A stretch of DNA of 64,000 nucleotides. Source: Candidatus Helarchaeota archaeon. Its GTDB lineage: Archaea > Asgardarchaeota > Lokiarchaeia > Helarchaeales > RDOG01. Below the pieces are notes generated by a model that searched no databases, was not told the DNA's origin, and saw only the letters and a list, made by a program, of their open reading frames with translations. Below are positions 44,378 through 45,837 of the stretch, piece after piece. The stretch lies in NCBI GenBank assembly GCA_019058315.1, contig JAHPZH010000004.1:480001-544000 (forward strand), given 5' to 3'. Numbering within the stretch: position 1 is the stretch's first letter; the number at the start of each line of letters is the position of its first letter. The position numbers were made by a program, and so were the translations under genes.

Positions 44378-45088
44378 ATGACCGATTATGGCCCCTTATG
44401 GAACGAATTGATAATCATGGAAGATATAATTTTCTTTACTTTAATGGGCTATCTAATTTATTTAATCATAGAGACTAAGCTCACCCATATAGAAAAATTT
44501 AGAAAGAATTTCTTGTCTGGAATAGTATTACTATTAATTTGTGCAGCATCTTTTGCAGTTACTACACATTACCTTACATTAGAACAGAATTTTCTCAATC
44601 TTCTCAATATTTCTATTTTAATTGCTTTAGTAATCTCCTCTTTATTGATAATATTTGGATTATTCAAATTAGATGAATATTTATATTCAATAATTGGCGT
44701 AGAAAAGAAAACAAGTAAAATTGTAATCTTAATTATCTCAATACCGGGTCCAGTAGTTGTATATATTTTGACTTTAATCACTAGGATAGATTATTCAGGT
44801 ATAATAGTAACACATGCAATGTTATTTCTCTATATTATTTATTACTTTATTTTCATTTATACGTTCTATATACACAAAGAAATGAAAGATATTAATATCA
44901 ATATGATGGCATTTTTTGGAACTGGTTTTATGTTCCAAGTTATTAATCAAATCATGGGAATATTTATTGAAGCGCTTACTGATGGCCTTTATTATACTTT
45001 ATTTTCACTATGGTACGTTTTACTAATAATATTTATAATTGCAGGATATTTGAATTTTAAAAATCGAATAAAAAATGTTAGAAAATAA
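44378..45088 (+). CDS. 7-TM membrane protein, paralog 1
   Basis: Seven hydrophobic segments (~aa 11-31, 45-63, 72-96, 115-134, 142-165, 176-197, 204-225) and a basic C-tail. Confidence 0.75.
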   Translation: MTDYGPLWNELIIMEDIIFFTLMGYLIYLIIETKLTHIEKFRKNFLSGIVLLLICAASFAVTTHYLTLEQNFLNLLNISILIALVISSLLIIFGLFKLDEYLYSIIGVEKKTSKIVILIISIPGPVVVYILTLITRIDYSGIIVTHAMLFLYIIYYFIFIYTFYIHKEMKDININMMAFFGTGFMFQVINQIMGIFIEALTDGLYYTLFSLWYVLLIIFIIAGYLNFKNRIKNVRK

Positions 45089-45111
45089 TTATAATCAAAG
45101 AAAGTGATAAA

Positions 45112-45837
45112 TTGACGAATTACGGAGATCCATGGAATTTAATAATACTGGTTGAAGTAATCATTTGGTTTTTATCAATCGGATATATGATATATTTAGC
45201 TGTAAAAACTAAATTAACCCATGTTGATGAATTTAGACAGAAATTCGTTGCGGGTATTTTTATCTTATTTATTAGTTCGTCTATTTTTGTTATAACTCAG
45301 CATTTATTCACTCTTACAGAGGATTTTATGAATATAGTGAGTATTTTTATTCTAATTGGGGTAATGACTTCAAGTACACTAATCATTCTTGCATTATTTA
45401 GAATGGATGAATATATATACTCCTTAATTGGCTTAAAGAAAAAAATGAGTAAGTTTAACATACTCTTACTCTCACTTCCTGGTCCAGTTACTGTTTTTCT
45501 TATTGATTTCATTATCAGAGGGATTTTAATATCAGATCTCTTGATAAGAATTGTTCTATTGCTAACCTATGTCATTTTTTATTTTATTTCTTTTTATACA
45601 TTCTTTTTACACAAAGAAATGAAGGATATTAATATCAATATGATGGCATTTTTTGGAATTGGATTCCTTTTCCAAGCATTAAATCAACCTCTCGCGATTT
45701 TTCAAGCACAAATTGAATTTGTATATGGAAACGATGGTCTTTATTGGGTTATATTTCAATTGTATTACATTTTATTAATAACTTTTCTAATTGCTGGATA
45801 TTTGAATTTTAAGAATCGAATAAAACATGTTGGTTAA
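45112..45837 (+). CDS. 7-TM membrane protein, paralog 2
   Basis: Colinear with paralog 1; identical blocks TKLTH, HKEMKDININMMAFFG and IAGYLNFKNRIK. Confidence 0.75.
   Translation: MTNYGDPWNLIILVEVIIWFLSIGYMIYLAVKTKLTHVDEFRQKFVAGIFILFISSSIFVITQHLFTLTEDFMNIVSIFILIGVMTSSTLIILALFRMDEYIYSLIGLKKKMSKFNILLLSLPGPVTVFLIDFIIRGILISDLLIRIVLLLTYVIFYFISFYTFFLHKEMKDININMMAFFGIGFLFQALNQPLAIFQAQIEFVYGNDGLYWVIFQLYYILLITFLIAGYLNFKNRIKHVG

What the first reader, a model, noticed from the sequence alone, without database searches (positions are those of the whole stretch)
44378..45837. Tandem paralogous 7TM proteins with conserved putative cytoplasmic loops and no retinal lysine
Seen: both have 7 hydrophobic helices and no fused signalling domain. 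Identity concentrates in loop 1 (TKLTH..FR), loop 3 (DEY.YS.IG), loop 5 (HKEMKDININMM) and the C-tail (GYLNFKNRIK). With an N-out topology these all face the cytoplasm, while the alternate loops diverge. TM7 has no mid-helix Lys. Inference: two receptors with different ligands and a shared intracellular partner, or a heterodimer. This is the conservation pattern expected of GPCR-like receptors.
Basis: partly seen in the sequence, partly recalled or inferred. Interest (0 to 1): 0.8.

Follow-up and report, generated by a model that had tools for sequence, protein, structure and literature searches.

The report
Asgard 7TM pair docking GTPase-operon adaptor
Two neighbouring genes in an Asgard (Helarchaeota-type) archaeon encode seven-helix membrane proteins of an unnamed, lineage-restricted family; their conserved inner face is predicted to bind a small soluble protein encoded next to a Rab-like GTPase, which would make this a testable archaeal membrane-to-small-GTPase link.

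Summary
Window 44378-45088 and 45112-45837 encode 236- and 241-aa paralogues (53% identity, E 2e-88). Both have seven helices and no fused domain, and there is no mid-helix Lys in TM7.

- **Topology and conservation:** The positive-inside rule gives N-out/C-in. Across 22 family members, 29 of the 30 best-conserved columns lie on the cytoplasmic half.
- **Fold:** The AF2 model (pLDDT 85.5) has a GPCR/rhodopsin-like helix arrangement. No Pfam, NCBIfam or PDB sequence match exists.
- **Distribution:** The family is tiny: 25 clusters among 1.84 billion representatives, and 0 of 160 other genomes of the class. It has 13 copies in this genome.
- **Candidate partner (new here):** The shared intracellular partner is probably the 136-aa helical protein at 41584-41994. 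Every other copy or remnant of it in the genome abuts a 7TM gene, with 4-nt overlaps at the three full-length copies. A controlled complex prediction supports binding (0.71 against 0.00) through ICL1, ICL2, ICL3 and the C-tail.
- **Operon context:** That protein sits directly upstream of a Rab-like GTPase in a conserved Helarchaeota operon that also holds an NPRL2-like protein.

Ligand sensing, GTPase coupling and A/B heterodimerisation remain inferred or untested. Other first readers of this scan noted the same stretch; none noted it on other DNA. I rate it a new variant of a known kind, interest about 0.7.

The parts
44378..45088 (+). 7TM-A, 236 aa. Orphan seven-helix membrane protein, predicted N-out/C-in.
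   Evidence: ORF. AF2 pLDDT 85.5, 7 helices. Positive-inside counts. No Pfam or NCBIfam match. Orthologue P0002 at 69% identity, tree support 100/99.
45112..45837 (+). 7TM-B, 241 aa, TTG start. Tandem paralogue of 7TM-A.
   Evidence: 53% identity to A, E 2e-88. B-like P0003 is 68% identical and also lies behind an NPRL2-like gene in another organism.
44471..44509 (+). ICL1 of 7TM-A (residues 32-44; KTKLTH..FR motif). Part of the conserved cytoplasmic face.
   Evidence: K34, L35, T36, F41 and R42 are invariant or at least 90% conserved in 22 sequences. Residues 36-38 are in the predicted g136 interface.
44666..44719 (+). Cytoplasmic extension of TM3 plus ICL2 of 7TM-A (residues 97-114; L..Y..S.I motif).
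   Evidence: L98, Y101, S104 and I106 are at least 90% conserved. Residues 101 and 104-108 give the lowest-error contacts with g136.
44873..44902 (+). ICL3 of 7TM-A (residues 166-175; H.EMK motif).
   Evidence: 100% identical between A and B, family conservation 0.60. Residues 171-173 are in the predicted interface. Near-identical at nucleotide level.
45044..45085 (+). End of TM7 plus basic C-tail of 7TM-A (residues 223-236; GYLNFKNR motif).
   Evidence: G223, Y224, F227 and K228 are invariant or at least 90% conserved. Residues 231 and 234-235 are in the predicted interface.
41584..41994 (+). g136: 136-aa soluble helical protein, the predicted cytoplasmic partner or adaptor of the 7TM family.
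   Evidence: AF2 pLDDT 92.3. No informative PDB fold match. All five other copies or remnants in the genome abut a 7TM gene. Complex score 0.71 against 0.00. Always directly upstream of the GTPase in Helarchaeota operons.
42008..42523 (+). Rab-like small GTPase, 171 aa. G1-G5 motifs and the catalytic Gln are intact, and there is no C-terminal Cys for lipidation.
   Evidence: PF00071 Ras, E 1e-48. Best PDB matches Rab35, Rab2A and Rab8A at about 1e-37 to 1e-35, and Thorarchaeota Rab 7ezb. Motifs read from the translation.
40743..41582 (+). g279: first gene of the conserved core, highly conserved (71-90% identity across lineages), unnamed family.
   Evidence: Alignment A4. No Pfam or PDB match. 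The N-terminal domain has many paralogues in the genome.
42533..43177 (+). g214: unnamed conserved protein whose N-terminus carries an HGP motif. Candidate GP-motif (FLCN/NPRL2/SMCR8-type) longin; this is inference.
   Evidence: Alignment A5, with H14, G15 and P16 invariant. No significant PDB or Pfam hit. The GP motif is described in PMC12290439.
43201..44286 (+). g361: NPRL2-like protein (longin-like N-terminus plus winged-helix repeats), directly upstream of the 7TM genes.
   Evidence: Profile A6 hits GATOR1 NPRL2 (6ces_N) at E 7e-4 over residues 161-320, and 8vd6 at 1.6e-6. Pfam HTH_47 2e-6 and a weak Sybindin hit. The g361->7TM order recurs in L012/13, L020 and L021-23.
45827..46549 (+). 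g240: unnamed protein whose start overlaps the 7TM-B stop by 11 nt.
   Evidence: ORF. A 43% identical homologue follows the single 7TM gene in L012/L013. No family or Atlas lead.
46587..46796 (+). 69-aa zinc-ribbon protein in the same gene string.
   Evidence: Weak A2L_zn_ribbon hit, 1e-3, below the cut-off. CxxC...CxxC read from the translation.
46801..47349 (+). g182: last gene of the string, unnamed.
   Evidence: ORF. Its C-terminal 95 aa survive in relative L011, where the g361-to-g182 block is deleted.

Best explanation
The two genes encode members of an orphan family of stand-alone seven-helix membrane proteins, restricted to a Helarchaeota-type Asgard lineage. They have a GPCR/rhodopsin-like helix arrangement, with the N-terminus outside and the C-terminus inside.

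Their conserved cytoplasmic surface is built from four elements:
- ICL1 (KTKLTH..FR)
- the cytoplasmic end of TM3 plus ICL2 (L..Y..S.I)
- ICL3 (H.EMK)
- the membrane-proximal basic tail (GYLNFKNR)

This surface is a docking site for the small soluble helical protein g136 (window 41584-41994). g136 is encoded immediately upstream of a Rab-like GTPase in a conserved core of g279, g136, Rab and g214, which is often followed by an NPRL2-like gene. I therefore infer that the 7TM-g136 pair ties this longin-regulated small-GTPase module to the membrane. Thirteen 7TM paralogues with diversified outer halves would share a few adaptor copies, as many receptors or anchors feeding one hub.

Status of each step:
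- **Shown:** paralogy, seven helices, inward-facing conservation, gene linkage.
- **Predicted:** topology, fold, 7TM-g136 binding.
- **Inferred:** coupling to the GTPase, and any ligand sensing.
For: 1. **Paralogy and helices.** 53% identity. Seven helices: AF2 pLDDT 85.5, pTM 0.83.
2. **Topology.** Inner loops hold 14-15 K+R, outer loops 1-2.
3. **Inward conservation.** 29 of the top 30 conserved columns are on the cytoplasmic half; mean 0.58 against 0.37.
4. **Gene linkage with g136.** In the 5.8-Mb genome, every g136 copy or remnant outside the window lies directly downstream of a 7TM gene. There are two intact copies, one frameshifted copy and two remnants, and the three full-length ones overlap the 7TM stop by 4 nt. 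Both genes also sit in the same operon in the window, L001 and L012/13.
5. **Complex prediction.** ipSAE 0.71 (runs 0.70, 0.71, 0.74) against a best control of 0.00. This mark was reached by 58 of 80 solved complexes and 2 of 110 mismatched pairs. At least 97% of contacts agree between runs, and the partner pLDDT is at least 84. Neither protein has a detectable sequence relative with a solved structure, and neither model has a clear fold match that would imply a solved like complex, so a pass from memory is unlikely.
6. **Interface content.** It uses the invariant T36, Y101, S104 and I106. On g136 the interface is more conserved than the rest, 0.90 against 0.75, p 8e-4.
7. **Hub behaviour.** g136 is much more conserved than the 7TMs: 89-93% against 69% to close relatives, and 65% against 43% to L001.
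8. **GTPase module.** The GTPase is Rab-like and intact, without a lipidation Cys. g361 matches NPRL2 at E 7e-4. The g361->7TM order recurs in four lineages.
9. **Retention of both copies.** A and B each have closer relatives in other organisms (A with P0002, support 100/99), so the duplicates have been kept.
Against: - Binding is a model prediction, not a measurement.
- The 7TM interface residues are no more conserved than the rest of the cytoplasmic face (0.60 against 0.63). Much of the conserved face (K34, L35, F41, R42, F45, G223, Y224, F227, K228) is therefore not explained by g136.
- The 7TM genes are dispensable for the GTPase core. They are absent from the operon in L011, where a deletion spans g361 to mid-g182, and in L015/L016.
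- Only the window locus among the 13 copies in this genome sits in an operon with a GTPase gene; one other copy (C2) has a Ras-like ORF about 4 kb away on the opposite strand.
- No g136-GTPase contact was tested.
- The outer loops are very short, so a ligand site would have to lie inside the bundle.
- There are no expression data.
- The family's narrow range argues against any ancestral role for eukaryotic GPCRs.
Confidence: 0.5

Rival explanations
1. Passive membrane anchor or scaffold. The 7TM proteins sense nothing; they hold g136, and through it or independently the lipid-anchor-less Rab-like GTPase machinery, at the membrane. Their outer halves drift under relaxed constraint.
For: - The outer loops are only 4-14 residues long and poorly conserved.
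- No conserved charged residue lies in any TM core.
- The GTPase lacks a C-terminal Cys.
- The same g136-binding evidence applies here.
Against: - Thirteen retained paralogues, with old A/B duplicates kept across lineages, are more than a simple anchor needs.
- Semi-conserved polar positions in the outer half (E/Q15, Q191, N/Q/S210) hint at a pocket.
- The 7TM genes are missing from some operons.
Confidence: 0.27
2. The two tandem proteins form an obligate A/B heterodimer, which is the functional unit.
For: Tandem 7TM pairs recur: window, C1:275-277 kb, L020, L021 and L024. Both A-like and B-like lineages are retained.
Against: Related operons have one 7TM gene (L012/13; L001 has one plus a 107-aa fragment). 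Several copies in this genome are solitary.
Confidence: 0.12
3. A transporter, channel or membrane enzyme unrelated to the GTPase genes, with the adjacency being incidental.
For: No family assignment at all. Only one of the 13 copies in this genome sits in a GTPase operon. The 7TM block is lost without loss of the core operon in L011.
Against: - There are no conserved charged or polar residues in the membrane cores.
- Conservation sits on a surface rather than in a pore.
- The fold matches are receptors and rhodopsins; no transporter appears among the best matches.
- Linkage to g136 and to the NPRL2-like gene is repeated.
Confidence: 0.08
4. Retinal-binding microbial rhodopsin (light sensor or pump).
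For: Foldseek and VIA-align list rhodopsins at TM about 0.5 and Z about 10-11.
Against: No member has a mid-helix Lys in TM7; the single TM7 Lys among 22 members (P0010) sits at the outer edge. There is no Bac_rhodopsin HMM hit. The organism comes from sediment.
Confidence: 0.01

Closest known systems
Eukaryotic GPCRs (fold level; best structural matches are class C and adhesion receptors such as GPRC5D 9ima, GABA-B 9jqx and T1R 9oq0)
   Same: Seven helices in the same order, with a similar arrangement by structural alignment, and N-out/C-in. Z is 11-13.5 over 190-205 residues at rmsd 3.5-4.0. The intracellular loops and proximal C-tail form the conserved partner-binding face. Many paralogues share a conserved inner face and a variable outer half.
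   Different: There is no sequence or HMM relationship and no DRY, NPxxY or CWxP motifs. The predicted partner is a 136-aa helical protein rather than a heterotrimeric G protein or arrestin. The family is confined to one narrow archaeal lineage. Z values in this range can arise from generic helical bundles.
Archaeal sensory rhodopsin with its separate transducer (SRII-HtrII)
   Same: An archaeal stand-alone 7TM protein that signals through a separately encoded, adjacent transducer protein (established knowledge).
   Different: There is no retinal lysine. The candidate transducer is soluble and docks on the cytoplasmic face, whereas Htr binds within the membrane. The downstream genes are a Rab-like GTPase and longin-type proteins, not CheA/CheY.
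Lysosomal 7TM-type proteins that talk to the Rag/GATOR1 machinery (LYCHOS/GPR155)
   Same: A GPCR-like membrane domain functionally tied to an NPRL2-containing GAP complex for a small GTPase (PMC11525196). Here an NPRL2-like gene directly precedes the 7TM genes in four lineages.
   Different: LYCHOS is a 17-helix transporter-GPCR hybrid that binds GATOR1 through its own loop. No homology with it is shown, and no contact between the archaeal 7TMs and g361 was tested. The GTPase here is Rab-like, not Rag-like.
Bacterial and archaeal 7TM sensor modules fused to output domains (7TM N-termini of GGDEF proteins, MASE4, HisKA_7TM)
   Same: These are the best predicted-structure matches in the ESM Atlas: TM-score 0.71 to a GGDEF protein's membrane domain, 0.74 to a Nitrososphaerota protein and 0.62 to MASE4 kinases. 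HisKA_7TM is the nearest named language-model neighbour, at 0.84 and carried by 10% of cluster members.
   Different: Those modules are covalently fused to their output domain, whereas this family is always stand-alone among full-length members. No HMM match was found.

Membership tests
Microbial (type I) rhodopsins | Schiff-base lysine in the middle of TM7 | tested here: not met
   No member has a mid-helix Lys in TM7. One of the 22 (P0010) has a Lys at the outer edge only.
Microbial (type I) rhodopsins | Match to the Bac_rhodopsin profile | tested here: not met
   No Pfam hit for any of the 22 members, even at E up to 5.
Eukaryotic GPCR superfamily | Seven TM helices, N-terminus outside and C-terminus inside | tested here: met
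   AF2 model with 7 helices. Positive-inside counts of 14-15 against 1-2. This is a prediction, not an experiment.
Eukaryotic GPCR superfamily | Detectable sequence or profile relationship to a GPCR family (7tm_1/2/3, Frizzled, Dicty_CAR, Git3) | tested here: not met
   No Pfam, NCBIfam or PDB-sequence hit.
Eukaryotic GPCR superfamily | Shared three-dimensional arrangement of the seven helices | tested here: inconclusive
   VIA-align top 50 is almost all GPCRs, Z 9.9-13.5 over 190-205 residues at rmsd 3.5-4.0. The tool warns that helical bundles can reach Z about 13 without kinship, and all Foldseek E-values were above 0.08.
Eukaryotic GPCR superfamily | Class A microswitch motifs (D/E-R-Y at the TM3 end, NPxxY in TM7) | tested here: not met
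   At the TM3 end only L98 and Y101 are conserved and the middle positions vary. TM7 ends in GYLNFK, not NPxxY.
Eukaryotic GPCR superfamily | Coupling to a heterotrimeric G protein or arrestin | not testable with these tools
   The predicted partner is g136. I did not search the genome for a G-alpha homologue.
Fused prokaryotic 7TM sensor modules (7TMR-DISM, MASE4, HisKA_7TM) | Covalent fusion to an output domain, and a match to the family HMM | tested here: not met
   All full-length members are stand-alone, about 220-260 aa. No HMM hit. Only fold-level similarity to such modules, TM 0.62-0.71.
PAQR / adiponectin-receptor family | Inverted topology (N-in) and a Zn-binding His/Asp site | tested here: not met
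   The predicted topology is N-out. No conserved His or Asp triad lies in the TM cores. AdipoR2 scored only Z 10.3.
NPRL2/NPRL3 (GATOR1) family, for neighbour g361 | Longin domain followed by NPRL2-type winged-helix region, with a profile match to NPRL2 | tested here: inconclusive
   Profile A6 hits NPRL2 chains 6ces_N and 8fw5_B at E 7e-4 and 8e-4 over residues 161-320. The N-terminal longin is supported only by a weak Sybindin hit at 0.058. No structure was predicted.

The most novel reading that the evidence does not exclude
This is a previously undescribed archaeal signalling architecture. A diversified set of stand-alone GPCR-fold 7TM receptors (13 in this genome) transmit through a dedicated soluble adaptor of no recognised fold (g136) to a Rab-like small GTPase. 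That GTPase is controlled by NPRL2/FLCN-type longin proteins. The result would be a receptor-to-adaptor-to-small-GTPase pathway in a prokaryote, analogous to but independent of GPCR-G protein and LYCHOS-GATOR1-Rag signalling.
Probability: 0.25. Interest if true: 0.9.

Novelty: new variant of a known kind. Interest (0 to 1): 0.7.

Why it matters
Asgard archaea carry dozens of Ras-superfamily GTPases and longin or roadblock proteins, but their inputs and membrane partners are unknown. GTPase genes are usually not in operons with their regulators, so pairs cannot be matched from the genome (PMC10933270).

This locus offers a compact, conserved and experimentally tractable set:
- a 7TM membrane protein;
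- a predicted adaptor with a defined interface;
- a Rab-like GTPase;
- NPRL2-like and GP-motif longin candidates.

If the links hold, the locus would show how a lipid-anchor-less archaeal small GTPase is brought to a membrane. It would also show that receptor-like 7TM input to small GTPases can arise in prokaryotes. The narrow distribution argues for a lineage-specific invention, not the ancestor of eukaryotic GPCR signalling.

Tried and rejected
**Family and sequence searches for the 7TMs**
- Pfam, NCBIfam and PDB-sequence searches of the 7TMs, singly and as 22 members or a profile, gave nothing consistent.
- Foldseek against the PDB gave no match at E <= 0.001 for either model.

**g136**
- VIA-align gave best Z 7.2 on partial alignments, which is not informative.
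- The Atlas shape search gave bacterial hypotheticals and PatA_N-containing proteins at TM 0.55-0.68. I kept this only as a lead. A PATAN/GTPase literature search added nothing relevant.
- The idea that the g279 C-terminus is a second copy of the g136 domain was tested. BLASTP gave E 0.026 over 15 residues, and hhalign gave probability 7%, E 0.005. It is not established.

**Scans for related loci**
- A profile re-search of the 5.8-billion database was swamped by candidates and added nothing.
- Searching the genomes behind L001, L011, L012 and L015 for further 7TM copies failed because those records are not held.

**Expression and reads**
- No RNA holder was listed for the stretch.

**Neighbouring genes**
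- g240 gave no family or Atlas lead.
- g214 and g279 profiles gave no significant PDB hit.

**Readings rejected**
- Rhodopsin, because there is no TM7 lysine.
- PAQR, because the topology is opposite and there is no metal site.
- Yip1/PRA1-type Rab receptors, which from my own knowledge have four to five helices, not seven.

**Literature left open**
- A 2026 preprint lists Asgard '7TM proteins' and a 'class C GPCR' cluster. I could not establish whether either is this family.
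Full report
**What is there**

The window is AT-rich (about 29% G+C). Between 40743 and 47349 it carries ten tightly packed genes on the + strand. The finding's coordinates hold two of them:
- 44378..45088 (ATG, 236 aa, '7TM-A')
- 45112..45837 (TTG, 241 aa, '7TM-B')

The two are 24 nt apart. 7TM-B overlaps the next gene by 11 nt. A and B are 53% identical (E 2e-88).

Neither protein matches any Pfam or NCBIfam model. A profile of 22 family members matches nothing credible in Pfam or among PDB sequences.

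**Checking the observation**

Charge-free hydrophobic runs and an AlphaFold2 model (mean pLDDT 85.5, pTM 0.83) both give seven helices.

Loops 1, 3 and 5 and the C-tail hold 15 (A) and 14 (B) Lys+Arg. The N-terminus and loops 2, 4 and 6 hold 1 and 2. The positive-inside rule therefore gives N-out/C-in.

Between A and B:
- Identity is 1.00 in ICL3, 0.73 in the tail and 0.61 in ICL2.
- It is 0.54 in ICL1, where only the KTKLTH..FR core stands out.
- It is 0.25-0.36 in the outer loops.

Across 22 family members the asymmetry is far clearer:
- The cytoplasmic half averages 0.58 conservation against 0.37 for the outer half.
- 29 of the 30 most conserved columns are cytoplasmic.
- Invariant or at least 90% conserved positions are L26, L29, K34, L35, T36, F41, R42, F45, L98, Y101, S104, I106, Y161, G223, Y224, F227 and K228.

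No member has a mid-helix Lys in TM7, and no charged residue is conserved in any membrane core.

One caveat applies. The ICL3 stretch is 47 of 48 nucleotides identical between A and B, including rare codons. Local gene conversion may therefore inflate that particular identity.

**Fold**

| Search | Result |
|---|---|
| Foldseek against the PDB | Only weak rows: rhodopsins at TM about 0.5, GPCRs about 0.4, all E > 0.08 |
| VIA-align against 48,161 representatives | List dominated by GPCRs: designed GPCR-like fold 8oyx Z 13.5; GPRC5D 9ima Z 12.9, rmsd 3.5, 194 residues; GABA-B, T1R, mGlu and adhesion receptors Z 11-12.7. Rhodopsins follow near Z 10-11 |
| ESM Atlas, by shape | Membrane module of GGDEF proteins TM 0.71; a Nitrososphaerota protein 0.74; fungal Git3 receptors 0.64; MASE4 kinases 0.62 |

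The VIA-align tool warns that helical bundles can reach such Z values without kinship.

I conclude that the helix arrangement is GPCR/rhodopsin-like, but homology is not shown.

**How wide is the family**

A full HMMER scan of 1.84 billion representatives found 25 clusters. All full-length members are stand-alone proteins of about 220-260 aa. The only named relatives are 'Candidatus Helarchaeota' MAG proteins.

In the held species genomes, the profile hits none of 160 other genomes of the class. That includes one genome of the same family (94% complete) and six of the same order.

The window's own 5.8-Mb genome has 13 copies:
- the window pair
- a second tandem pair on C1
- an array of four on C7
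- five singles

A language-model search points to unnamed Promethearchaeota clusters of similar length at 0.94. A wider, very divergent superfamily is therefore possible.

**The partner**

The 136-aa gene at 41584..41994 ('g136') has six relatives or remnants in the genome, counting its own copy. Every one outside the window lies immediately downstream of a 7TM gene on contig C7:
- Two are intact, with starts that overlap the 7TM stop by 4 nt.
- One is frameshifted.
- Two are short remnants.

The 7TM copies that carry them form one well-supported clade (100/99). A 7TM+g136 cassette has therefore been duplicated repeatedly.

g136 models confidently as a helical bundle with one hairpin (pLDDT 92.3). 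It has no informative PDB match.

- Score 0.71 (runs 0.70, 0.71, 0.74) against a best control of 0.00.
- This mark was reached by 58 of 80 solved complexes and 2 of 110 mismatched pairs.
- At least 97% of contacts agree between runs, and the partner pLDDT is at least 84.
- No like complex is known for these orphans, so a pass from memory is unlikely.

The interface on the 7TM is residues 36-38 (ICL1), 101 and 104-108 (TM3 end and ICL2), 171-173 (ICL3), and 231 and 234-235 (tail).

On g136 the interface (residues 22-38 and 89-102) is more conserved than the rest, 0.90 against 0.75, p 8e-4.

The 7TM interface residues are not more conserved than the remaining cytoplasmic face (0.60 against 0.63). 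Part of the conserved face is therefore still unexplained and could serve a second partner or lipid contacts.

**The operon**

g136 lies directly upstream of a 171-aa GTPase:
- It matches PF00071 at 1e-48.
- Its best solved relatives are Rab35, Rab2A and Rab8A at about 1e-37 to 1e-35.
- Its G1-G5 motifs and catalytic Gln are intact, and it has no C-terminal Cys (read).

The order g279, g136, Rab, g214 is conserved in every Helarchaeota locus I could fetch: L001, L011, L012-14 and L015-16. g279 stays 71-90% identical and g214 69-86% identical across these loci.

g361, just before the 7TM genes, matches GATOR1 NPRL2 at E 7e-4 over 160 residues. NPRL2-like proteins are already reported in Asgards (bioRxiv 10.1101/2020.10.19.343400).

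g214 has an invariant N-terminal HGP. That is the 'GP motif' position of the FLCN/NPRL2/SMCR8-type GAP longins described in PMC12290439. I did not test its fold.

The 7TM genes are a variable appendage of this core:

| Locus | 7TM genes at the operon |
|---|---|
| Window | two |
| L012/L013 | one, followed by a g240 homologue |
| L001 | one, plus a fragment |
| L015/L016 | none |
| L011 | none; the block from g361 to mid-g182 is deleted |

Short metagenome contigs from other organisms repeat the arrangement:
- L020 and L021-23 show g361-end -> 7TM -> 7TM.
- L024 shows 7TM-end -> 7TM.

Tandem 7TMs behind the NPRL2-like gene are therefore recurrent.

A groups with P0002 (100/99), and B sits next to P0003 at 68% identity. 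Both duplicates appear to have been retained across lineages.

**Mechanism**

My best reading has four parts:
- The 7TM proteins present a conserved cytoplasmic docking face for g136.
- g136 connects them to the Rab-like GTPase and longin module.
- Three intact g136 copies serve 13 receptors or anchors.
- g136 evolves much more slowly than the 7TMs, as expected of a hub.

Status of each step:
- **Shown:** paralogy, helix count, inward conservation, gene linkage.
- **Predicted:** topology, fold, 7TM-g136 binding.
- **Inferred:** g136-GTPase coupling and any ligand sensing.

The main rival is a passive anchor without sensing; I cannot separate the two computationally. Obligate A/B heterodimers are possible but not required, because single-copy operons exist. 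A transporter or enzyme role is unlikely, given the absence of conserved polar residues in the membrane cores. A retinal rhodopsin is excluded by the missing lysine.

**Comparison and novelty**

In what it works like, the system resembles three known arrangements:
- GPCRs, in having a conserved intracellular face and diversified paralogues.
- Sensory rhodopsin with Htr, in having a stand-alone archaeal 7TM and a separate transducer.
- LYCHOS with GATOR1, in having a GPCR-like domain beside an NPRL2 complex (PMC11525196).

It is not a demonstrable member of any of these families.

I found no paper describing this family or this operon. Tran et al. note that Asgard GTPases are generally not in operons with their regulators, which makes this locus unusual.

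A 2026 preprint lists Asgard '7TM proteins' and a 'class C GPCR' structural cluster. I could not tell whether either includes this family.

Other first-stage notes of this scan flagged the same operon on this same DNA. None flagged it on other DNA.

**Verdict**

I rate it a new variant of a known kind, with interest about 0.7. It is limited by purely computational evidence and by a very narrow phyletic range.

Noticed in passing
window 29007-39260 (-) and 39321-40454 (-): A 3417-aa ORF (a multi-PAS signalling protein, judging from its homologues' Pfam hits in related loci) and a response regulator with DUF835 are transcribed divergently from the GTPase operon. The same pair sits in the same place in Helarchaeota loci L001, L011 and L012-14, which suggests a conserved regulatory link between two-component signalling and the GTPase module.
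   Followed up: partly
G000 contig C7:238543-243400 (locus L007 covers part): An array of four 7TM genes, each followed by a g136 gene in a different state of preservation: two intact with 4-nt overlaps, one frameshifted (243002-243393) and one 29-aa remnant (240925-241011). A fifth cassette with a remnant lies at C7:99133-99956.
   Followed up: yes
L011:7954-9121 (GCA_013375355.1 contig JABXJV010000125.1): The closest relative with a long contig (g136 89% identical) keeps g279, g136, Rab and g214 but lacks g361, both 7TMs, g240 and the zinc ribbon. Only the C-terminal 95 aa of g182 remain (82% identical). This is a clean deletion of the accessory block.
   Followed up: yes
G000 C5:956513-959542 (= L002:659-3688): Another 7TM paralogue is preceded by a 367-aa protein with N-terminal hydrophobic segments and a C-terminal domain resembling the N-terminal domain of g279/g361 (BLASTP E 4e-4 to 0.04). 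An HXXEE-family membrane protein is also present. A membrane-fused version of the longin-like domain is therefore possible.
   Followed up: partly
window 44873-44920 against 45610-45657: 47 of 48 nucleotides are identical between the two 7TM genes across ICL3 and the start of TM6, including rare CAC and ATC codons, against 66% nucleotide identity overall. This is a possible short gene-conversion tract.
   Followed up: partly
window 44420, 44948 and 45005 (7TM-A residues 15, 191 and 210): Semi-conserved polar residues lie in the outer halves of TM1 (E/Q in 14 of 22 members), TM6 (Q-type in 12 of 22) and TM7 (N/Q/S-type in 12 of 22). They could line an outward-facing pocket. I did not check this in the model.
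   Followed up: no
window 41584-41994 (model m678d9d0396df): The g136 model resembles unnamed bacterial proteins and parts of PatA_N (PATAN)-containing proteins in the ESM Atlas (TM 0.55-0.68, 106-115 residues aligned). There is no sequence support, so this is a lead only.
   Followed up: partly
whole genome G000: tblastn with the Rab-like GTPase gives 76 hits at E <= 1e-5. g361 has two full-length paralogues on C5 (554591 and 730047, 51-52% identical). The g279 N-terminal domain has 13 further hits. Together these indicate a large GTPase and longin-like repertoire.
   Followed up: no
window 47489-49639 (+): A 716-aa thioredoxin-domain protein (Thioredox_DsbH in homologues) follows the operon and keeps this position in L001, L011 and L012/13. 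It marks the conserved downstream boundary of the variable block.
   Followed up: partly
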